DNA of 64,000 nt from Mycobacterium sp. (GTDB lineage Bacteria > Actinomycetota > Actinomycetes > Mycobacteriales > Mycobacteriaceae), in assembly GCF_965230835.1 (NCBI RefSeq), contig NZ_CBDDLW010000001.1, positions 13,566 to 77,565 on the forward strand, written 5' to 3'. A model generated the notes under the pieces. That model was not told the DNA's origin and did no database searches. It saw nothing but the letters and a program-made list of their open reading frames with translations. Shown here piece after piece: positions 5,779-17,888 of the stretch. Numbering within the stretch: position 1 is the first letter of the stretch; each line of letters opens with the position of its first letter. The position numbers were made by a program, and so were the translations under genes.

Positions 5779-6512
5779 AAGCCGAAGTGGCACAGCAGCG
5801 TTCGCTTATGGAGCTGGCAAACCTGGATGCGGAGCTGGCCAGGATCGCGCATCGTGCCAACCATCTGCCGCAGCAGGAGGCCCATGATCGGGTACAGGCT
5901 GAGCACGACGCTGCCAACGATCGGTTGGCTTCTGTCCGGATCGCGTTGGAGGACTTGGACGCCCAAGTGTCGCGATTTGAATCGGATATAGACGCGGTGC
6001 GCAAACGTAAGGACCGAGACCACTCGTTGCTGACATCGGGTGCGACCGACGCCAAGCAGCTGTCTGATCTGCAGCACGAGCTGGACACCTTGCAGCGCCG
6101 TCAGGGCAGTCTGGAAGATTCTTTGCTGGAGGTGATGGAGCGCCGTGAGGAGCTGCAGACTCAGCTGTCAGCTGAGTCGAGTCTGCTCGCGGGGCTGCAG
6201 AACGACTTGGTGGGCGCCCGAGGAGACCTCGACGCAGCGCTTGCCGAGATCGATCAGGCACGCCAGGACCATTCATCGCGACGTGACGCGCTGACCGCGG
6301 CGCTGGACCCGCGCCTTTCTGAGCTGTACGAACGACAGCGTGCCGGGGGAGGGCCGGGTGCTGGGCCTTTACAGGGGCATCGTTGCGGCGCGTGCCGGAT
6401 CGAGATCGGCCGCGGCGAGCTGGCCAGTATCTCGGCGGCTGCCGAGGACGATGTGGTGCGGTGTCCGGAATGCGGGGCGATCCTATTGCGGGTCAAAGGG
6501 TTCGGCCAGTGA
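5775..6512 (+). CDS. Coiled-coil plus C4 zinc-ribbon protein (Rv2229c-like)
   Basis: Long heptad region followed by CGAC...CPEC; ATGA overlap with the upstream gene. Confidence 0.92.
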
Positions 6513-7624
6513 AGGTAATCATCGAAGCTGACGGTGGATCGCGGGGGAACCCCGGCCCAGCGGGCTACGGAGCGGTGGTGTGGACTGCAGACCATGTGAC
6601 TGTGCTTGCCGAGAGCAAGCAGGCGATCGGCCGGGCAACGAACAACGTCGCTGAGTACCGAAGCTTGATAGCAGGTTTGGACGACGCCGTGAAGTTGGGC
6701 GCCACCGAAGCCTCCGTTCTGATGGATTCCAAGCTGGTGGTGGAGCAGATGTCGGGCCGATGGAAGGTCAAACACCCCGACTTGGTTCAGCTCAATGCTC
6801 AGGCTCGCGCGCTCGCGTCGCAGTTTCGCCAGATCAATTTCACGTGGATTCCGCGGGCCAAAAATTCGCATGCCGACCGATTGGCCAACGAGGCGATGGA
6901 TGCCGCTGCGCACGCTAAGCGCGACGTGGAAAAAGCCACCGTTCCGGTTGCCGGGTCCGGCAAAGACTTGGCGACCGAATCCCCCACAGCTCCCGGTTGG
7001 ACGGGTGCGCGCGGCACGACCACCCGGCTGTTGTTGTTGCGGCACGGGCAGACCGAGTTTTCGGTGCAACGGCGCTATTCGGGGCGCGGCAACCCCGGTC
7101 TGAACGACGCTGGCCGGCGCCAGGCTGAGGCGGCGGCACGGTATCTGGCTCAACGCGGTGGGATTTCCGCGGTGGTCTCCTCACCGCTGCAGCGGGCCTA
7201 CCAAACCGCGAAAACAGCGGCCGGCGCGCTGGGCTTGGAGGTGGCCGTCGACGAAGATCTCATCGAGACCGATTTCGGTGCGTGGGAAGGCCTGACGTTC
7301 ACCGAAGCCGCTGAACGCGATCCTGATTTACACCGCCGCTGGTTGCAGGATGCCGACATCAAGCCGCCGGGCGGTGAAAGCTTCGATGACGTGCTGCAGC
7401 GGGTTCGCCGGGGACGTGACCGCATAGTGGCGGCCCACGAAGGTGCGACGGTGTTGGTGGTCTCTCATGTCACGCCGATCAAAATGTTGTTGCGTCTGGC
7501 CTTGGACGCCGGTCCGGGGGTTCTGTACCGGTTGCATCTTGATCTGGCTTCGCTGAGCATCGCCGAGTTCTATTCCGACGGGGCGTCATCGGTGCGTCTG
7601 GTGAACCACACCGACTACGTATAG
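6509..7624 (+). CDS. Bifunctional RNase H / histidine (alpha-ribazole) phosphatase (Rv2228c-like)
   Basis: ADGGSRGNPGPAG, TNNVAEY, MDSKLVV and N..AD RNase H motifs, then RHGQT histidine-phosphatase motif. Confidence 0.95.
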   Translation: MKVIIEADGGSRGNPGPAGYGAVVWTADHVTVLAESKQAIGRATNNVAEYRSLIAGLDDAVKLGATEASVLMDSKLVVEQMSGRWKVKHPDLVQLNAQARALASQFRQINFTWIPRAKNSHADRLANEAMDAAAHAKRDVEKATVPVAGSGKDLATESPTAPGWTGARGTTTRLLLLRHGQTEFSVQRRYSGRGNPGLNDAGRRQAEAAARYLAQRGGISAVVSSPLQRAYQTAKTAAGALGLEVAVDEDLIETDFGAWEGLTFTEAAERDPDLHRRWLQDADIKPPGGESFDDVLQRVRRGRDRIVAAHEGATVLVVSHVTPIKMLLRLALDAGPGVLYRLHLDLASLSIAEFYSDGASSVRLVNHTDYV

Positions 7625-7788
7625 TGGTGTATTCGTCGCAGCAATGCGCGTGGCGATGGTATCGCTTTGGCTTACGCGTGCTTCGCTTGTAGTGCGGCAG
7701 AACATGCGTCGAAGTAGATGGCTGCGGGTAACGCAGTCGGCGCAACGCCGCTGGCCTAGCGGTGCGGTAGCGAGTACGGTGATGTTCG

Positions 7789-8213
<425 letters not shown>

Positions 8214-8271
8214 CTGACCGGGGACCCGAGCATTTTGCTAGTCGGAGCTGCAGTCTTCGGCAGTACATCCG

Positions 8272-8367
8272 AGCCGAGTCGATCGCGTCCCTGGTCCGAT
8301 CGTCAGAATCGGGTCGCAGGTGGGTGTAGGTGTCCAGCGTCTCGACCGCACGGGCTAACGAGTGGCG
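8272..8367 (-). pseudogene. C-terminal remnant of a phage-type tyrosine integrase
   Basis: Minus-strand frame reads RHSLARAVETLDTYTHLRPDSDDRTRDAIDSA, matching the actinobacterial integrase tail (H..A.ETLDTY.HLWPDSDDRTR.AID) with the catalytic Tyr at 8326-8328. No start codon or N-terminal domains. Confidence 0.75.
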
Positions 8368-8527
8368 GGGCTCTCTAGGCCGACACTACCCTGGCCACTG
8401 TTCGTTTCCCTAAGTCAGGCGGCAGGGGGTGGACACGGCACCATCCCAGGGCCACCGCCGGCTACAGCATGAAAGCAAATCTTCAGATATCGGTCGTCAC
8501 AATAAGAGCGCAACGGGTGGAGGCTAC

Positions 8528-9850
8528 ATGCGCGCTTCTTCATCAGAAGAGTTCACCGAGGCACCTGACCACGAAGCGCCGATGCGGCGTGTCGCAATAT
8601 CCAGCCTGCTTGGCATCACCTTCGAGTACTACGACTTTTTGTTGTACGGCACCATGAGCGCGCTGGTATTCGGTCTGGTTTTCTTTCCGCAGTCCGACCC
8701 ATCAGCGGCCGCGATTGCAGCCTTCGGCACTTTGGCAGCGGGCTATGTGGCGCGTCCACTTGGGGGAGTCCTTTTCGGCCACTTCGGTGACCGGCGTGGG
8801 CGCAAATCAATCCTTGTAGTCACCATGGCCATGATGGGTGTCGCGAGTGTGCTGATAGGGATGGTCCCGACATACACAGCGATTGGTGTGGCCGCGCCCG
8901 TCATCCTCGTCACGCTGCGCGTCATTCAAGGTGTAGCGATCGGAGGGGAATGGGGCGGCGCCACGTTGATGGTTACCGAGCATGCTGATCCGGGGCGCCG
9001 CGGCATGTGGAACGGCTTCATGCAAATGGGGTCAGCGATCGGCGGACTTCTCGCGGCCGCGGCGGCTGCCGCTGTTACCTATCTGCCTGAGGCCGCCTTC
9101 CTGACATGGGGATGGCGTCTTCCTTTCCTGGCGAGCGTCATCTTGATTGCGGTTGGCTTGTATATCCGGCTTGGCATTCCGGAGAGCCCTGTTTTCCACA
9201 AAGCCCACACCACGGCTGGAACACCTGACAACTCAATACCGTTGCTGATGCTGCTGCGCCGTCCCCGCTCTCTTGTGCTTGCGTGCTGCGTTGGCGTCGG
9301 GCCGTTCGCGTTGACTGCTCTTAACAGCACGTACATGATCTTCTACGCCGTAGCCATCGGTTATGAGAGATCCGATGTCACGACCGTTCTGGTGTTGATG
9401 GCCGCCAACGCCTTGATAACCATCCCTGTTTTCTCCGCGTTGTCCGACCGCCTTGGGCGCCGCACCGTCATCGTGGCCGGTGCGATCGGAATCGTTGCCT
9501 ACGCGTGGCCGTTCTACGCCATGGTCGGGACCGGTTCGCTACCAGTGTTCATCGTCGCGATGATGATCAGTCAGGTCATTCAGTCGGCGATGTTCGCACC
9601 GTTGGGAGCATTGCTTGCAGAGGTATTCGGAACCGCTATCCGTTACACGGGAGCGTCGATGGGATATCAGCTCGCAGCGCTCATCGGTGCCGGCTTCACG
9701 CCGTTAATCGCAAGTAGCGTGCTGGTCTCGGGGCCGCGTAGCGGCCCTTTGGTTGCGCTGGCGATGGGCTGCGGAATCGTGAGGTCGCGTCTCATCGCTG
9801 GTGTAAATGGTCACGGGCGTAGGTTCCGTCGCAACCGACGAAAGCTATGA
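8528..9850 (+). pseudogene. MFS transporter (MHS, shikimate/proline-betaine-like), C-terminus disrupted by IS256
   Basis: GGAGG RBS then ATG 8528; EYYDF, DRRGRK, GGEWGGA and SDRLGRR motifs. After GCGIV the ORF runs into IS sequence; the native tail lies at 11247-11309. Confidence 0.85.
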
Positions 9851-11238
9851 AGGAGGGGCTACGCCCGTGACCAAGCGAGTATCGCCGATTGAGCGTGTGC
9901 GTGTTGAGATGGATCAGTTGTTCGCCGCGACCGAGCGGCCGTTGACCGAGATTTTGGAGGAGGTCGGGCGGTTATCGGTGCGTCTGGTGTTTCAGGTCGC
10001 CGTGGAGGCCGAGGTAGAAGCAGTGTTGGGCCGAGCCCGTCACCAGCGTCGGGTTCAGGACGGCCCGGGCGGGTACCGCAATGGGTATCAACCGCCGGCG
10101 ACGGTGAAGACCACGATGGGCTCGGTCGAATTATGCCGCCCGAAACTACGCGACACCGACGAGCGGTTCTGTTCGCGGCTATTCGGTGCCGGGGTGACGC
10201 GCACCCACGCTCTGGAGGCGTTGGTGATTTCGGGATGGGTGCGCGGTTTGTCGGATCGCGACATCGAGGCCGCGTTGGCCGAGGTGCTGGGCTCGCAGGC
10301 GGCGTTGTCGCGCTCGACGGTGAGCCGGATTTGTGCGGCCATCAAAGACGAGTTCGCTGCGTGGTCGTCTCGACGCCTTGATGAGCTGGTGTTGGACTAC
10401 CTGTTCTTGGATGCCTCGAACTTTCGGATGCATCCCAACGCCCCGGCCGAGCCGGTGCTGGCCGCCTGGGGCATCTGCACCGACGGCAAGCCCCTGTTTA
10501 TTGGGCTGGCCCCAGCCGCAGCGGAGTCGGCTGATGCGTGGGCCGACTTCTTGGCTGACCTGAGGAACCGGGGACTACGCCCGCCGCTACTGGGCATCTC
10601 CGACGGGGCGCCGGGCCTGATCGCCGCATGGGAGACCACGTTTCCGGCAAGCCTGCGTCAGCGGTGTCTGATCCATCGCTGCCGTAACGTCATCGCCAAG
10701 ACACCTGTCGCGGTCCAGGACGAGATCAAAGCCGCGTTCTGGTCGATCTTCGATGACATTGACCAGCCACCCGGCCAGCAGGCCGTGGATGAAGCCACCC
10801 GCCGCGCCGAGGAGTTCACCACCACATACCGCGGGCTCTACCCAGCCGCGGTCGCTTGCCTGGCCAACGACTTCGCCTCGCTGAGCGTGCATTTGCGCTT
10901 CCCCCGCCAACACTGGACACGCATCCGCCATTCCAACCTCATCGAACGCACCTTCGGAGAATCCCGTCGCCGGGTCAAGGTCATCGGCCGCCTACCCGGC
11001 GAAACCAGCTGTCTGTCGCTGGTATGGGCCGTCCTCGACCGCGCCAGCCGCGGCTGGCGCGGAGTCACCCAAACATCAGCGACCAGCCGCCACCTCCAAG
11101 AACTACGCCACCAACTGCTCGAGCCACCCCGCCCACTGCATCCCCCCACCACAACAACCACGACCGACACCACCGCCGCGTAACATGACCACCAGGAACA
11201 TGCGCCCAGCGTTTTTACACCAGTCCTAAGACGCCACC
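9783..11238 (+). mobile_element. IS256-family insertion sequence, 1,456 bp
   Basis: IRL ggtcgcgtctcatcgctggtgtaaa (9783-9807) and IRR tttacaccagtcctaagacgccacc (11214-11238) match at 20/25. Flanks aatcgtga (9775-9782) and aatcgttga (11239-11247) form an imperfect target duplication. Confidence 0.92.
9867..11183 (+). CDS. IS256-family (Mutator-type) DDE transposase
   Basis: AGGAGG RBS, GTG start; YRNGY, LFLDA, ISDG, QRCLIH and SNLIE motifs. Confidence 0.95.
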   Translation: MTKRVSPIERVRVEMDQLFAATERPLTEILEEVGRLSVRLVFQVAVEAEVEAVLGRARHQRRVQDGPGGYRNGYQPPATVKTTMGSVELCRPKLRDTDERFCSRLFGAGVTRTHALEALVISGWVRGLSDRDIEAALAEVLGSQAALSRSTVSRICAAIKDEFAAWSSRRLDELVLDYLFLDASNFRMHPNAPAEPVLAAWGICTDGKPLFIGLAPAAAESADAWADFLADLRNRGLRPPLLGISDGAPGLIAAWETTFPASLRQRCLIHRCRNVIAKTPVAVQDEIKAAFWSIFDDIDQPPGQQAVDEATRRAEEFTTTYRGLYPAAVACLANDFASLSVHLRFPRQHWTRIRHSNLIERTFGESRRRVKVIGRLPGETSCLSLVWAVLDRASRGWRGVTQTSATSRHLQELRHQLLEPPRPLHPPTTTTTTDTTAA

Positions 11239-11246
11239 AATCGTTG

Positions 11247-11309
11247 ACGTTGCTTGCTGTCTGGCAGATTAGCGAGACCAAAGGCAGTGACCTGACGGCC
11301 ACAACCTGA
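11247..11309 (+). pseudogene. Detached 3' end of the MFS gene
   Basis: Reads TLLAVWQISETKGSDLTATT-stop, a typical MFS TM12 plus ETKG tail, in frame with GIV when the left target copy is used. Confidence 0.85.
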
Positions 11310-11381
11310 AAGCGCCAATCCGAGGGCGCGCGATCAATCACACAGCCGGTCAACGGACAATATTGACAGTTCCGTTCTGGC

Positions 11382-12929
11382 TTAGCGTCGTGCGTGGCGC
11401 GCCGACTTGTCTAGCTTGCGTAGGGCGGCGTCGAGTTGCTCACGGCAACTGTCAGCCAGGTCGGCTTCCCGTTGATAGAGCAGGCCGTAAGTGAACGTGT
11501 CCTCTCCCGCAGCATGCGCTGCATTGGCTTCGTGAATCAGGCGCTCCCGGCTGACCACGCTGTCCTGATGGTCGCCGAGTAACGTCTGAATGGCTTTAGC
11601 CTGCTGGGACACCTCTTTCGCTCCGGTCGCTGCCGCGGTGTAGCGCAGGCGCTTGGCGCGCTTACGGATCTGGTGTAGCGCCTCGTTGTGCTGTGCGCCA
11701 TCGTCCGGGTCGCCTTGAGCGGCGGCGTTCGCCGCCTTTGCGGCCTTTCGGACCCGCCTGTACGCCGCTTCTATTCCCACCGGGGCCACCGGTTCGACTG
11801 CCTGGCCGGAACTGGCGGCCGGGCGTATAGCAACCATTTCGTCGAGAGCGTCGAGGAGCCGGAAATAGCGTTGCGATCGCATTGCGACCAACGAACGGCG
11901 CAGCCCTGTTTGATAGCGGCGTTGTGCGTCGTTGACCAGACGTTCCCGAACCCGACCACGCACCAACGCGGGTGCGAGCCGATTCAGTTCGCACTGGTAA
12001 CGCTCGCCGAGCACCTCCGCGTCGCGTGCCACGCCGAGGACTCCGGCCAGCTCGCGAAGTTCGTCGATGACCCACGCGTTGTCGGACAGTCCGAACAAAT
12101 CCTGAGACTCACGGAGCAGACTTCGGATCTTGCGTATGGTGACCCGCATCTGGTGTACGGCATCATGGGCGTCGGCACGCACCGCGCGATCCCATGCCAG
12201 CAGCTCAGCTACTTGTTGGGCCACCGCACGGTGTACTGGGTCTGACGGTTGCGTGCCGGCGGGCGCAGGCTTCACGTTGAGCACCCGCGCCAGCTTGGAT
12301 CCGTGCCCCGCCGGCGAACCGCCCGCATCGAGCAGCCGGTTGCTCAGCCGATCCAGTAGTTCCCGGTCGGCTGAACCGTTTGATGCCACGATTTCTAACT
12401 CCCATTCGCGCCACTGTTGCGCGGCCGGGTCCGAGTCGGAGCTATCGCACTTTGTGCTGGACCGGGCGGTAACGCGATCGTTGCAGAACTCGGCTACAGC
12501 GACGCCGCGGCCGTCGTACAACACTTGGCTTTCGCGCTCGGTCGTGATCTGGGCGACCGGTTCAACCGGTCGGTCACGAACAATCGCAAGCACGACATCG
12601 AGCAACTCTGTGGGCGCGGTGTTCCCAGCAGCGCCGCCGCATGGGGCAAGCGGCATTCTCAACTCCGTGCGGGCGTCGGGTCCAGCCGGCAGTTTGAGGT
12701 GCCAACCGGGGTCCTGGCCACCGGTGCGGCGGCGCAGGGTGACCCGGTTGCGCGCCAGGTCTTGTGCGGGCGTGTCGAAATACACCGCATCCAGCGATTG
12801 GACGGGCAACTTTTCGACGCGGGCCACCGCTGCGATGCCGTCGAATGACGGCGGCACTGTGGATTCGACGGCGTCGAACTTGCGCTCCACCTCCAGCTGA
12901 CGCGACGCTTTTGACGCTTTTACAGGCAT
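11382..12929 (-). CDS. CYTH plus CHAD domain protein (Rv2226-like)
   Basis: EVERKF, LRRRTGG, WHLK and WREWELE CYTH motifs; CHAD motifs VHQMRV and LHQIRK; GGAGG RBS. Confidence 0.93.
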   Translation of the reverse strand: MPVKASKASRQLEVERKFDAVESTVPPSFDGIAAVARVEKLPVQSLDAVYFDTPAQDLARNRVTLRRRTGGQDPGWHLKLPAGPDARTELRMPLAPCGGAAGNTAPTELLDVVLAIVRDRPVEPVAQITTERESQVLYDGRGVAVAEFCNDRVTARSSTKCDSSDSDPAAQQWREWELEIVASNGSADRELLDRLSNRLLDAGGSPAGHGSKLARVLNVKPAPAGTQPSDPVHRAVAQQVAELLAWDRAVRADAHDAVHQMRVTIRKIRSLLRESQDLFGLSDNAWVIDELRELAGVLGVARDAEVLGERYQCELNRLAPALVRGRVRERLVNDAQRRYQTGLRRSLVAMRSQRYFRLLDALDEMVAIRPAASSGQAVEPVAPVGIEAAYRRVRKAAKAANAAAQGDPDDGAQHNEALHQIRKRAKRLRYTAAATGAKEVSQQAKAIQTLLGDHQDSVVSRERLIHEANAAHAAGEDTFTYGLLYQREADLADSCREQLDAALRKLDKSARHARR

Positions 12930-13052
12930 TGCCGCCTCCGGTGAAAACACGCTGCCACGATGCTGGGCGGTCGTGTGTGGTCGTGTCGCTGTGGCTGTCT
13001 CCGCAGCGGGTCTGGCTGGCGCTCGCCTCGGACATTCGAGGCCGAACTCACC

Positions 13053-14762: not shown

Positions 14763-14905
14763 CACTGTCCTTAAGGGATGGTCGGGTCGATCCTCGTGGC
14801 CCTCAGGTCTAGCGCTGGTGGGTCCCCGGGTTCGTCTGACCCCAATAGTCTGCCATCTGTTCCGCGCGGGTGCACCACGCGCCCCCATCCGCATACCATC
14901 GACAC

Positions 14906-16297
14906 ATGCAGCGGCTCAGTGGGCTCGATGCCAGCTTTCTGTATCTGGAAACCTCCACTCAGCCTCTGCATGTTTGCTCGATCATGGAGTTGGATACCTC
15001 GACAGCGCCGGGCGGCTATACCTTCGACCGCTTGCGTGACGCGTTGTCGCTGCGGCTCAAGGCGATGCCGGAGTTCCGCGAAAAGCTTGCCAACAGCCCC
15101 CTGAACCTCGACCATCCGGTCTGGGTGGATGACAACAACTTCAGAGTCGATCGGCATTTGCATCGCATCGGGTTGCCGCCACCTGGCGGGCGGGCTGAAT
15201 TGTCGGAGATCTGCGGTCATATTGCGTCGTTACCGCTGGACCGCAACCGGCCGCTGTGGGAGATGTGGGTCATTGAAGGTGTGGCGGGCACTGACTGCCA
15301 TCGCGACGGCCGGGTGGCGCTAATGGCCAAGGTTCACCATGCTGGCGTGGACGGGGTGACAGGGGCCAACCTTATGTCGCAGCTGTGCACCACCGAAGCC
15401 GATGCGCCCGCCCCCGATCCGGTGGACGGCGTCGGCGGCGCCAGCGGCTGGCAGATCGCTGCTGGCGGACTATTGAAGTTTGCCGGCAGGCCACTGCAGC
15501 TGGCCAACATGGTGCCGGAGACGGTGTCCTCGTTGGTCTCGACACTGCAGCGGGCGCGTGACGGCCGGACTATGGCGCGCCCGTTCACTGCGCCGAGAAC
15601 CGCATTCAACGCCACCATCAGCGGCCGCCGAAACATCGCCTACGCCGAGCTGGATCTCGAGGACATCAAGACGGTGAAGAATTACTTCGGAGTCAAGGTC
15701 AACGACGTGGTGATGGCTTTGGTCTCCGGGGTGCTCCGGCAATACTTGGCTGACCGCAAAATCTTGCCTGATTCGTCGCTCGTCGCAATGGTGCCGGTGT
15801 CGGTGCACGGAAAATCTGATCGTGCCGGGCGCAACCAGGTTTCGGGAATGTTTTCCAGTCTGGAAACTCAAATTGTCGACCCGGTCGAGCGTCTGAAGGC
15901 TATTGCCGAAGCTAATTCCGTTGCTAAGCAACATAGTTCAGCAATCGGTGCCACGCTCTTGCAGGATTGGTCAGAGTTCGCCGCGCCGGCGGTCTTCGGT
16001 GCCGCGATGCGGGTCTATGCCCGGACCCGGTTTACCGAGAGCCTGCCGGTGCACAATCTGGTGATCTCCAATGTGCCGGGTCCGCAAATCCCGCTTTACA
16101 TGTTGGGCTGCGAGGTCAAGGCGATGTACCCGCTAGGGCCGATCTTTCACGGCTCAGGACTCAATATCACCGTGATGTCGCTGAACGGTAGTCTCGACGT
16201 CGGGCTCATCGCATGCCCAGAACTGCTGCCGGACCTGTGGGAAATGGCTGACGAGTTTGCCCGTGGCATGGAAGAACTGGTGGCAGGGACCCGGTAA
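14906..16297 (+). CDS. Wax ester synthase / diacylglycerol acyltransferase (WS/DGAT)
   Basis: [12 protein letters not shown] start, LDRNRPLWE, catalytic HHAGVDG, KVNDVV and [10 protein letters not shown]. Confidence 0.93.
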
Positions 16298-16334
16298 CCA
16301 CGGTTTTCCAGCGATCTCTGGCAGCATAGAAGGT

Positions 16335-17888
16335 ATGGGCTTTTTTCGCCGCGACAAGATCGCGCGCATGCTGCTGATCTGGACCGTGATTGCCGCCGTG
16401 GCGATGGTTCTCTCGGGCTGCATCCGCGTGGTCGATGGGCGCGCGCACATGTCCGAGCCGAAGCTGGGTGAGCCGATTGAGTGGAAGCCGTGCCGATCCC
16501 TCGGCGGGGTGGAAATCCCCGGCGGTGCGCTGTGCGGCAAGCTCGCCGTGCCGGTCAACTACGACCGTCCCGAGGGCGCCGTGGTGTCGCTAGCGATGAT
16601 TCGTTTTCCGGCGACAGGAGACAAGATCGGTTCGCTGGTAATCAATCCGGGTGGCCCCGGTGAATCCGGCATCGAGGCCGCGTTGGGCGTTTTCCAGACA
16701 TTGCCCAATCGGGTTCACGAGCGGTTCGACCTTGTTGGGTTCGACCCCCGTGGGGTGGGGTCTTCGCGGCCGGCGATTTGGTGCAACTCCGACGCGGACA
16801 ACGACCGGCTTCGCGCCGAGCCTCAGGTTGACTACAGCCCGGCAGGCGTGGCGCGAACGGAGAACGAAACCAAGCAATTTGTCGGTCGCTGCGTCGACAA
16901 GATGGGCAAGAACTTCCTGGAGAATGTCGGGACGGTCAACGTCGCTAGGGATCTGGATGCCATCCGCGCGGCGCTAGGTGACGATAAATTGACCTACCTC
17001 GGCTACTCCTATGGCACGCGGATCGGCAGCGCCTACGCCGAAGCCTATCCACAGCGGGTACGGGCGATGATCCTGGACGGTGCTGTCGACCCCAACGCCG
17101 ATCCCATCGAGGCGAACTTGCGCCAGGCCAAAGGATTCCAGGAAGCATTCAACGACTATGCCGCCGACTGCGCCAACGACTCGACCTGTCCGCTGGGCAC
17201 TGACCCGGCTAAAGCGGTTGATGTCTACCACAGCCTGGTTGACCCGCTGGTCGACCCTGACGACCTTACGGTCAGCCGGCCGGTACCGACGAAGGACCCG
17301 CGCGGGCTGAGCTACAACGACGCGATCGTGGGCACCATCATGGCGCTGTACTCACCCAATTTCTGGCACCACTTGACCGACGGGCTGGCAGAGCTAGTAG
17401 ACCATCGCGGAGATACGCTGCTTGCTCTGGCCGACATGTACATGCGACGCGATGGTAGCGGGCATTACTCCAATGCCACTGATGCGCGAGTGGCGATCAA
17501 TTGTGTTGACCAGCCTGCGATTACCGATCGTTCTAAGGTCATCGAGGAAGACCGCCGAGCACGTGAGGTTGCGCCGTTTATGAACTACGGCAAATTCACT
17601 GGCCACGCGCCACTGGGTACCTGCGCATTCTGGCCAGTCCCGCCGAGCAGCAAGCCGCATACCATCTCGGCTCCCGGCTTGGTGCCGACGGTTGTGGTAT
17701 CGACCACGCATGATCCGGCGACGCCCTACAAGGCCGGAGTTGATTTGGCGAGTCAGCTTCGCGGCTCCCTGCTGACCTTCAACGGTACCCAGCACACCGT
17801 GGTGTTTCAGGGCGACAGTTGTATTGACAACTACGTGACGGCGTATCTGATCGGCGGCACGACACCGCCCAGCGGTGCCAAGTGTTAG
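16335..17888 (+). CDS. hip1: Lipoprotein serine protease/carboxylesterase Hip1 (CaeA, Rv2224c-like)
   Basis: Lipobox LSGC, INPGGPG, GFDPRGVG, nucleophile GYSYG, DPATP, GTQH. Confidence 0.92.
   Translation: MGFFRRDKIARMLLIWTVIAAVAMVLSGCIRVVDGRAHMSEPKLGEPIEWKPCRSLGGVEIPGGALCGKLAVPVNYDRPEGAVVSLAMIRFPATGDKIGSLVINPGGPGESGIEAALGVFQTLPNRVHERFDLVGFDPRGVGSSRPAIWCNSDADNDRLRAEPQVDYSPAGVARTENETKQFVGRCVDKMGKNFLENVGTVNVARDLDAIRAALGDDKLTYLGYSYGTRIGSAYAEAYPQRVRAMILDGAVDPNADPIEANLRQAKGFQEAFNDYAADCANDSTCPLGTDPAKAVDVYHSLVDPLVDPDDLTVSRPVPTKDPRGLSYNDAIVGTIMALYSPNFWHHLTDGLAELVDHRGDTLLALADMYMRRDGSGHYSNATDARVAINCVDQPAITDRSKVIEEDRRAREVAPFMNYGKFTGHAPLGTCAFWPVPPSSKPHTISAPGLVPTVVVSTTHDPATPYKAGVDLASQLRGSLLTFNGTQHTVVFQGDSCIDNYVTAYLIGGTTPPSGAKC

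What the first reader, a model, noticed from the sequence alone, without database searches (positions are those of the whole stretch)
8213..8400. Tyrosine-integrase remnant aimed at the 3' end of rnpB: RNase P RNA gene as a possible integration site
Seen: about 60 bp past the rnpB 3' end, an unannotated minus-strand frame reads RHSLARAVETLDTYTHLRPDSDDRTRDAIDSA, the catalytic-Tyr tail of actinobacterial phage/ICE integrases. It is followed by an accessory MFS gene that is not in the H37Rv rnpB-Rv2226 interval as I recall it. Established: integrases usually lie next to their att site, typically the 3' end of tRNA or tmRNA genes. Inference: 8213-11340 is the eroded remnant of an integrative element that targeted rnpB, which would be an unusual attB. 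I could not find a duplicated rnpB 3' end (attR) at 11310-11380.
Basis: partly seen in the sequence, partly recalled or inferred. Interest (0 to 1): 0.7.

Follow-up and report, generated by a model that had tools for sequence, protein, structure and literature searches.

The report
Decayed mobile element at rnpB
A 150-bp leftover of an integrase gene beside the RNase P RNA gene marks a decayed mobile element; intact relatives in many actinobacteria insert into the end of this essential gene, a docking site I could not find described in the literature I could search.

Summary
The minus strand at 8272-8367 encodes the catalytic-tyrosine tail of a tyrosine integrase, about 60 bp past rnpB (7793-8211). 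It matches an intact 391-aa integrase of a related Mycobacterium at 24 of 27 residues (E 2e-9). At DNA level the window is collinear with occupied relatives from the rnpB end to about 8373.

In 13 of 20 same-genus rnpB loci, rnpB is followed directly by the CYTH-CHAD gene (empty site). Four relatives carry 2.8-7.9-kb or larger insertions at that spot, starting with the same integrase. Three are closed by a roughly 30-bp repeat of the rnpB 3' end.

Of the 80 best integrase homologues across Actinomycetota, 76 lie beside rnpB and none beside a tRNA. At least 21 have the far-end repeat.

In the window the element is a wreck. About 34 integrase codons remain, with a 13-bp deletion. attR is absent from the whole genome. 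The MFS gene is accessory and interrupted by an IS256-family element with about 160 copies.

This is a new target gene within the known tRNA/tmRNA integration paradigm. This locus itself is dead.

The parts
7793..8211 (+). rnpB, the RNase P RNA gene (bacterial class A). It is intact, and the P1 helix strands (5' GGACGAGTTGGC, 3' GCCAACTCGTCC) are perfectly complementary.
   Evidence: Rfam RF00010, 283.5 bits, model positions 1-367 of 367; sequence read.
8185..8213 (+). att core: AATCCGGCTTACAGGCCAACTCGTCCGCC. It covers the last roughly 29 nt of rnpB, from the P4 3' strand to the 3' end. This is the segment that appears as a direct repeat at both ends of the elements in relatives. Here it is the attL copy only.
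   Evidence: attL/attR comparisons in relatives. It is a single copy in the window and in the genome.
8214..8373 (-). Element arm plus the integrase pseudogene remnant. It corresponds to about residues 342-391 of the 391-aa integrase P0001. The readable peptide lies at 8272-8367 and includes the catalytic Tyr in LDTYTHL. A 13-bp deletion near 8270 shifts the frame after DAIDSA. Homology to relatives ends at about 8360-8373.
   Evidence: tblastn 24/27, E 2e-9; DNA alignment with L035, L034, L033 and L037; blastn 85% identity.
8374..8527 (.). Junction DNA with no detectable relative. It lies between the integrase truncation point and the MFS start codon.
   Evidence: blastn with word size 7 against the own genome and all fetched loci found only itself. 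The identical sequence 8324-8474 is present in a coral metagenome contig.
8528..11309 (+). Accessory MFS transporter gene, split by the IS. Codons 1-418 lie at 8528-9782 and the last roughly 20 codons at 11248-11309.
   Evidence: Pfam MFS_1 2e-26 and Sugar_tr 9.5e-25. The best relative in the genus is 67% identical and lies elsewhere in its genome; all others are 46% or less. The tail after the IS matches the 3' end of that homologue. An IS-free allele occurs in coral metagenome run X5, as a joint from 9779 to 11245. The gene is absent from all 80 other rnpB-linked loci.
9783..11238 (+). IS256-family (Mutator-type transposase) insertion sequence, 1456 bp, with a transposase ORF at 9807-11183. 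It is a late, simple insertion into the MFS gene with a roughly 9-bp target duplication.
   Evidence: Pfam Transposase_mut 2e-65. There are 164 megablast hits, i.e. about 160 near-identical copies in the genome. Terminal inverted repeats and flanks are shown. The metagenome joint skips 1465 bp.
11382..12950 (-). CYTH-CHAD gene, the host gene that abuts rnpB in empty sites. It marks the right-hand limit of the inserted DNA.
   Evidence: Pfam CHAD 5.3e-46 and CYTH 7.6e-9. It lies directly beside rnpB in 13 of 20 same-genus loci. It lies just beyond attR in occupied loci.

Best explanation
The window holds the dead remnant of an integrative element that once inserted by tyrosine-integrase site-specific recombination into the 3' end of rnpB.

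Mechanism, as inferred from intact relatives: the element's attP carries a roughly 30-bp copy of the last part of rnpB, from the P4 3' strand through the P1 3' strand to the end of the gene. This copy lies just beyond the 3' end of its int gene. Recombination with the identical stretch of the chromosomal gene (attB) puts the element between rnpB and the CYTH-CHAD gene. rnpB stays whole, its 3' end now continuing into element DNA with int converging on it (attL). The displaced host copy of the gene's end sits at the far side (attR).

In this genome the element then decayed in this order. First, a deletion or replacement removed int upstream of about codon 342, and attR was lost. Second, a 13-bp deletion broke the remaining tail. 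Third, an IS256-family element inserted into the neighbouring accessory MFS gene.

Nothing here can recombine any more. rnpB itself is intact.

Shown directly: the integrase remnant, its collinearity with occupied relatives, the empty sites, the direct repeats in relatives, and the rnpB specificity of the integrase clade. Inferred: recombination activity, the order of the early decay steps, and that the MFS gene was cargo of the same element.
For: Identity of the remnant:
- tblastn of P0001 against the window gives 24/27 identities, E 2e-9.
- P0001 is a full tyrosine recombinase: Pfam Phage_integrase 1e-22, Phage_int_M and SAM_3.

Collinearity:
- The window aligns base for base with four occupied relatives from the rnpB end through the spacer into the int tail. 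One 13-bp gap explains the frameshift.

Empty versus occupied sites in the genus:
- 13 of 20 same-genus loci have rnpB directly followed by the CHAD gene.
- G024, G016 and G002 have int fragments followed by cargo, then a second copy of the rnpB end, then CHAD.
- G008:C1 has an intact int with an XRE repressor, an HTH_17 (excisionase-like) protein and a DUF3987 protein.

Specificity of the integrase clade:
- 392 relatives were detected and the best 80 were fetched.
- 76 of those 80 lie beside rnpB, 58 of them convergent within about 113 nt or less.
- Only one tRNA lies within 1.5 kb of any int, and there rnpB sits between the two.
- Far-end repeats of 25-46 nt occur in at least 21 loci, three of them with two repeats, i.e. 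tandem arrays.
- In 9 of 10 genomes checked, the rnpB beside int is the only rnpB.

Element-donated 3' end:
- In L048 the attL copy differs from attR at four helix positions. All four still pair, as G.U, with the host 5' strand.

Decay order:
- A coral-metagenome contig carries the same truncation junction, and another carries the MFS gene without the IS.

Accessory status of the MFS gene.
Against: No attR copy exists in the window or anywhere in the genome. The right boundary, and the claim that the MFS gene belongs to the element, therefore cannot be demonstrated here.

Only about 34 clean codons of int survive, and Pfam does not call the fragment on its own.

No excision or integration has been observed for any member. 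All evidence is comparative.

The MFS gene is not found on any other rnpB-linked element. Its GC content is only slightly below that of the flanks.
Confidence: 0.88

Rival explanations
1. The integrase remnant is real and rnpB-targeted, but the MFS gene and the junction DNA (8374-11309) are not cargo of that element. They arrived by a separate event: an older integrase-less islet stacked in tandem at the same site, or a later replacement or deletion that fused unrelated DNA to the integrase tail.
For: Tandem arrays with several copies of the rnpB end exist in relatives L056, L090 and L105. Homology to other elements stops abruptly at about 8373. The MFS gene occurs on none of the other 80 rnpB-linked loci. 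Its only close homologue, 67% identical in G001, lies far from rnpB.
Against: No internal copy of the att core is left between the int remnant and the MFS gene, nor after it. Cargo differs widely between relatives anyway: gnd/zwf/aldo-keto reductase in G016, secreted proteins in G002, phage structural genes in L047. A unique cargo gene is therefore not unusual.
Confidence: 0.4
2. The integrase fragment was brought next to rnpB by an unrelated rearrangement, for example IS-mediated in this IS-rich genome, and says nothing about rnpB as an attachment site.
For: The genome carries about 160 copies of one IS256-family element, so rearrangements are plausible. attR is missing.
Against: The fragment is collinear with rnpB, in the same orientation and spacing as in four same-genus relatives and 58 further loci from several orders. 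The IS in the locus is a simple insertion with a target duplication, and it is absent from a metagenome allele that already has the truncated int. No close paralogue of the integrase exists elsewhere in the genome; the others are 30% identical or less.
Confidence: 0.02
3. The peptide similarity is a chance match in a GC-rich open frame.
For: The fragment is short. Pfam gives no hit. The phage tblastn E-values are weak, 0.04-0.8.
Against: P0001 matches at E 2e-9. DNA identity to relatives is 85% with E 9e-29. All 13 phage hits fall in integrases.
Confidence: 0.01

Closest known systems
Genomic islands, prophages and integrative elements in the 3' ends of tRNA and tmRNA genes (Williams 2002, Nucleic Acids Res 30:866, as cited in PMC3218068 and PMC12540744; actinomycete AICEs such as pSAM2 and SLP1, PMC2440964)
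   Same: A tyrosine integrase lies next to the attachment site. The attP core copies the 3' part of a stable-RNA gene, so the gene stays intact after insertion. A direct repeat of that gene end closes the element. Tandem arrays and decayed integrase-less islets occur. Empty sites are found in sister species.
   Different: The target is rnpB, the RNase P ribozyme gene, not a tRNA or tmRNA. The identity block covers the P4 3' strand to the P1 3' strand. None of the 80 nearest integrases sits at a tRNA or tmRNA gene. I found no paper naming rnpB as an attB.
Enterococcus phage phiEf11 integrating into ffs (4.5S RNA), reported as a novel attachment site in 2025 (PMC12540744)
   Same: A temperate element uses a housekeeping non-coding RNA gene other than tRNA or tmRNA as attB. 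The attP core lies a few tens of nt from the end of int.
   Different: The RNA gene, host phylum and integrase lineage are all different. That paper lists only tRNA/tmRNA and csRNA as known ncRNA targets and does not mention rnpB as a target.
Arthrobacter phages TripleJ and Kukla (NC_049470, PQ362669), the nearest cultured-phage integrases
   Same: Their integrases are 39% identical to P0001 over 98% of its length. Directly after the int stop lies ACAGAACCCGGCGTATCGGTCAACCCATCC, which resembles an rnpB 3' end. cmscan gives RF00010 at E 0.0035 for Kukla.
   Different: The core lies on the same strand as int, whereas it is on the opposite strand in the mycobacterial elements. A lysogen would therefore have int at the attR side.
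phiRv1/phiRv2-type roughly 10-kb prophage-like elements of Mycobacterium tuberculosis (from my own knowledge, not tested)
   Same: The bounded 9.9-kb element at rnpB in Mycobacterium sp. 852002-51163 (L047) carries an HK97-type capsid, an S78 prohead protease, a small terminase, DUF3631, DUF2742 and int. As I recall it, this gene set is like those elements.
   Different: As I recall, phiRv1 uses a serine integrase and REP13E12 repeats. I did not compare sequences. The window keeps none of these genes.

Membership tests
Tyrosine recombinase / phage integrase (Pfam PF00589) | The catalytic domain is recognised by the family profile. | tested here: not met
   The 62-aa window fragment gives no Pfam hit. 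The intact relative P0001 gives PF00589 at 1e-22, plus PF22022 and PF14659. The window holds a pseudogene remnant of a member, not a member.
Tyrosine recombinase / phage integrase (Pfam PF00589) | The full set of catalytic residues is present (Arg, Lys, His-x-x-Arg, His/Trp, Tyr). | tested here: not met
   Only the segment with the nucleophile Tyr (LDTYTHL) and the stretch just before it survives. The HALRH box of relatives and everything upstream is gone.
Integrative element in the 3' end of a stable-RNA gene (the tRNA/tmRNA-island paradigm) | An integrase gene lies adjacent to the target gene end. | tested here: met
   The remnant starts about 10 nt from the rnpB end and is collinear with intact relatives. 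In the clade, 76 of 80 loci lie beside rnpB.
Integrative element in the 3' end of a stable-RNA gene (the tRNA/tmRNA-island paradigm) | A direct repeat of the target gene's 3' end lies at the far boundary (attR). | tested here: not met
   It is absent from the window and the whole genome. It is present in relatives G024, G016 and G002 and in at least 21 of 80 loci. The feature is met for the family and lost in this copy.
Integrative element in the 3' end of a stable-RNA gene (the tRNA/tmRNA-island paradigm) | The target gene remains intact after insertion. | tested here: met
   rnpB is full length at 283.5 bits with P1 complementary. Full-length rnpB was found in all 7 occupied loci scanned. 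It is the sole rnpB copy in 9 of 10 genomes.
Integrative element in the 3' end of a stable-RNA gene (the tRNA/tmRNA-island paradigm) | Empty sites exist in related genomes. | tested here: met
   13 of 20 same-genus loci have rnpB directly followed by the CYTH-CHAD gene. Occupied and empty alleles are both present in MAG G008.
Integrative element in the 3' end of a stable-RNA gene (the tRNA/tmRNA-island paradigm) | Excision and integration are demonstrated (circular form, restored attB). | not testable with these tools
   No experiment and no read evidence for a circular form was obtained. The window copy lacks both int and attR.

The most novel reading that the evidence does not exclude
The 3' end of rnpB is a major attachment site, so far undescribed in papers, served by one dedicated clade of tyrosine integrases across Actinomycetota. 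The clade has hundreds of members in Mycobacterium, Nocardioides, Geodermatophilaceae, Dermatophilaceae, Propionibacteriales and Acidimicrobiales. It is carried by small phage-like or satellite-like elements and probably by cultured Arthrobacter phages. Each integration replaces the P2/P1 3' strand of the ribozyme with element-borne sequence. Helix compatibility with the host 5' strand could then limit host range, and it would move rnpB 3' ends horizontally, in a gene that is used as a species marker.
Probability: 0.6. Interest if true: 0.7.

Novelty: new variant of a known kind. Interest (0 to 1): 0.55.

Why it matters
Integration into the 3' end of tRNA and tmRNA genes is textbook. Other housekeeping RNA genes are only now being reported as targets: ffs was called novel in 2025 (PMC12540744).

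This locus, read together with its relatives, shows that the RNase P ribozyme gene is used in the same way by a large and specific integrase clade. This has four practical consequences:
- Island and prophage finders that look only at tRNA and tmRNA genes will miss these elements.
- The integrase plus attP could serve as a single-copy integration tool for actinobacteria, at a site present once in every genome.
- The 3' end of rnpB, a gene used for mycobacterial species typing, can be of foreign origin.
- The requirement that the donated strand pair with the host's 5' strand gives a testable rule for host range.

For this particular genome the finding is only a scar, together with one more example of its IS256 expansion.

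Tried and rejected
Searches that led nowhere:
- Pfam on the short fragment gave no hit.
- tblastn of the short peptide against phages gave only weak hits. The full-length relative was needed.
- A displaced attR was sought in the window and in the whole genome, using the core and the conserved attR arm. None was found.
- The junction DNA 8374-8527 and the post-IS tail were searched in the own genome and all fetched loci. No source was found, apart from the tail matching the MFS homologue.
- The consensus promoter and terminator scan around rnpB and the MFS start gave nothing useful.
- The GC profile shows the MFS region only slightly lower than its flanks, which is not decisive.
- Pfam on ORFs of two small elements (L084, L090) gave mostly no families.
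- Nine literature searches found no paper on rnpB as an attB (and a within-paper search). The library excludes most subscription journals, so absence is not proof.

Ideas considered and rejected:
- That the element carries a whole rnpB gene, suggested by the two rnpB copies in G008. Nine other genomes have a single copy. The two G008 copies are 97.9% identical including host flank, which fits two strains in one MAG.

Full report
**What is in the window**

Rfam finds one RNA gene in the 64-kb window: rnpB (bacterial class A RNase P RNA) at 7793-8211 on the + strand, full length, 283.5 bits. There are no tRNA genes.

The frame has no start codon and no proper stop, and it reads on into rnpB.

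The neighbouring genes are as follows:
- an RNase H/histidine-phosphatase gene at 6383-7624 (+)
- an MFS transporter gene starting at 8528 (+)
- a Mutator/IS256-type transposase at 9807-11183 (+)
- a CYTH-CHAD gene at 11382-12950 (-)

**Is the integrase remnant real?**

Pfam does not call the 62-aa fragment. tblastn against phages gives only weak hits, although all 13 fall in annotated integrases.

The decisive evidence came from relatives. A DNA search of 40 related genomes with 7793-8520 showed that three same-genus genomes match beyond rnpB into the integrase tail. One of them, G008 contig C1, has an intact 391-aa gene, P0001. P0001 carries the Pfam domains Phage_integrase (1e-22), Phage_int_M and SAM_3.

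P0001 matches the window at 24 of 27 residues, covering residues 348-374. The E-value is 2e-9 against the window and 2.5e-7 against the whole genome. No other part of the integrase is present. The genome has no close paralogue; the others are 30% identical or less.

A DNA alignment shows the window is collinear with four occupied relatives, from the rnpB end through the spacer into the int tail. A 13-bp deletion in the window explains the frameshift after DAIDSA. Homology ends at about 8360-8373.

**Is rnpB the attachment site?**

Three lines of evidence say yes.

1. Empty sites. In 13 of 20 same-genus rnpB loci the CYTH-CHAD gene follows rnpB directly.

2. Occupied sites with direct repeats.
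- G024 has rnpB, degraded int fragments, a second copy of the rnpB end 2.8 kb downstream, and then CHAD.
- G016 has rnpB, a 114-aa int C-terminal fragment, cargo (6-phosphogluconate and glucose-6-phosphate dehydrogenase-like genes, an aldo-keto reductase), the repeat 7.9 kb downstream, and then CHAD.
- G002 has the same layout, split over contigs.
- The repeat is (ACAG)AATCCGGCTTACAGGCCAACTCGTCCGCC(C). It runs from the universally conserved P4 3' strand to the end of the gene.
- The DNA just inside attR (ACAAACGCCCAGATAAC) is conserved between the three elements.

3. Specificity of the clade. A scan of one genome per GTDB species with P0001 found 392 relatives, and the best 80 loci were fetched. 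They come from Mycobacterium, Mycolicibacterium, Nocardioides, Marmoricola, Geodermatophilus, Blastococcus, Modestobacter, Dermatophilaceae, Propionibacteriales and Acidimicrobiales.

The positions of rnpB relative to int in those 80 loci are:

| Arrangement | Loci |
|---|---|
| rnpB convergent with int, conserved 3' motif within 113 nt of the int match | 58 |
| rnpB convergent, 0.4-4.9 kb away | 15 |
| rnpB just upstream of int on the same strand (L107 M. heidelbergense, L118, L123) | 3 |
| No rnpB in the fetched DNA (two on contigs of 2.5 and 5.4 kb) | 4 |

ARAGORN finds only one tRNA within 1.5 kb of any of these integrases, and in that locus rnpB lies between the two.

At least 21 loci have a 25-46-nt direct repeat of the rnpB end on the far side of int. 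These bound elements of about 1.3 to 10 kb. Three loci have two repeats, which indicates tandem arrays.

In 9 of 10 genomes checked, the rnpB next to int is the only rnpB. The cell's sole RNase P RNA gene is therefore the one joined to element DNA.

**Mechanism**

The layout is that of tRNA and tmRNA islands. attP carries a copy of the gene's 3' end next to int. Recombination within the identity block leaves a complete gene at attL and the displaced end at attR.

One locus shows the donated end directly. In L048 (a Mycolicibacterium MAG) the attL copy differs from attR at four positions of the P2/P1 3' strand. All four still pair, as G.U, with the host 5' strand, while attR is closer to the perfect complement.

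In the window the P1 strands are perfectly complementary.

Recombination itself was not observed for any member. That step is inference.

**What kind of element**

Cargo varies between loci.
- The intact G008 element has an XRE repressor, an HTH_17 (excisionase-like) protein, a DUF3987 protein and an ISL3 transposase.
- The bounded 9.9-kb element of Mycobacterium sp. 852002-51163 (L047) has an HK97-type capsid, a prohead protease, a small terminase, DUF3631 and DUF2742. This is a phage-satellite-like or phiRv-like set; the resemblance is from memory only.
- Smaller elements carry mostly unannotatable ORFs.

The nearest cultured-phage integrases are those of Arthrobacter phages TripleJ and Kukla, at 39% identity. 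An rnpB-end-like sequence follows their int stop codon.

**History of the window copy**

The inserted DNA spans 8214 to about 11380. Only the attL arm and about 34 clean integrase codons remain, up to about 8373. Next come 150 bp of DNA with no relatives, and then the MFS gene.

The MFS gene is accessory. Its best same-genus relative is 67% identical and lies elsewhere in that genome. All others are 46% identical or less. It is on none of the other 80 elements.

A 1456-bp IS256-family element at 9783-11238, with about 160 near-identical copies in this 5.05-Mb genome, sits in the 3' end of the MFS gene. The gene's last roughly 20 codons continue at 11248-11309.

Public runs give the order of events:
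- A coral-metagenome contig is identical across the truncation junction (8324-8474).
- Another coral-metagenome contig joins 9779 to 11245, skipping 1465 bp, which equals the IS plus a 9-bp target duplication.

The integrase truncation is therefore older than the IS insertion, and the IS insertion is a simple, recent event.

No attR copy exists anywhere in the genome. Whether the MFS gene was cargo of the same element or came from a separate event therefore cannot be decided. I put cargo slightly ahead.

**Comparison with what is known**

This follows the classical paradigm of integration into the 3' end of a stable-RNA gene (Williams 2002, as cited in PMC3218068; AICE review PMC2440964), but with a different target gene.

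Nine searches of the held literature found no paper naming rnpB as an attachment site. A 2025 paper that presents ffs as a novel site lists only tRNA/tmRNA and csRNA as ncRNA targets. The library lacks most subscription journals, so this is not proof of absence.

Earlier notes of this scan report the same phenomenon in other genomes. I reached the conclusion before reading them. I used them only as a prompt to look at phage integrases.

**Verdict**

The locus itself is a non-functional scar. The interest lies in the clade-wide use of rnpB as attB. I rate it a new variant of a known kind, with interest 0.55.

Noticed in passing
window 9783-11238, and genome-wide: A 1456-bp IS256-family insertion sequence has about 160 near-identical copies (99.5-100%) in a 5.05-Mb genome of 94.5% completeness. 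This is a strong, recent IS expansion of the kind seen in host-restricted or niche-restricted mycobacteria. An IS-free allele of this very site exists in a coral metagenome.
   Followed up: partly
window 7700-9782 in public runs: Near-identical pieces of this locus turn up in coral, oyster and steel-surface metagenomes and in metatranscriptomes. The organism or close relatives therefore appear to be marine or invertebrate-associated.
   Followed up: no
L035 (G008:C1) 16176-16576 and L036 (G008:C4) 14861-15256: One MAG holds two full rnpB genes that are 97.9% identical including upstream flank. One has the intact element and the other is an empty site abutting CHAD. This probably reflects two strains binned together, and it gives an occupied/empty pair from one sample.
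   Followed up: partly
L048 11189-11230 (attL) and 984-1011 (attR): The rnpB 3' strand at attL differs from the displaced copy at four positions, and all four form G.U pairs with the host 5' strand. This suggests an element-donated ribozyme end that is tolerated through wobble pairing.
   Followed up: partly
L107 9338-11047, L118, L123: In three mycobacterial loci, including M. heidelbergense whose rnpB is 92% identical to the window's, a 56-62% identical integrase lies downstream of rnpB on the same strand (attP on the 5' side of int). The rnpB-end repeat lies 8-11 kb further on in L107 and L118.
   Followed up: partly
L136 3635-3690 (Arthrobacter phage TripleJ) and L137 3601-3679 (Kukla): Directly after the integrase stop codon lies ACAGAACCCGGCGTATCGGTCAACCCATCC, which looks like an rnpB 3' end (cmscan RF00010, E 0.0035). 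It may be the attP core of cultured temperate phages.
   Followed up: partly
L047 1291-11213: A 9.9-kb element bounded by rnpB-end repeats carries an HK97-type capsid, an S78 prohead protease, a small terminase, DUF3631, DUF2742 and int. It is a compact phage-satellite-like gene set.
   Followed up: partly
L056, L090, L105: Two far-side copies of the rnpB end are present, indicating tandem islets stacked at the same site. In L090 the inner islet carries an AhpC/DUF742 fusion ORF and a DUF4352 protein.
   Followed up: no
L021 (G001) and L022 (G022): Two further same-genus genomes have unexplained DNA between rnpB and the CHAD gene: about 1 kb in L021 and at least 1.5 kb in L022. Neither has an integrase match, so they may be integrase-less islets.
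   Followed up: no
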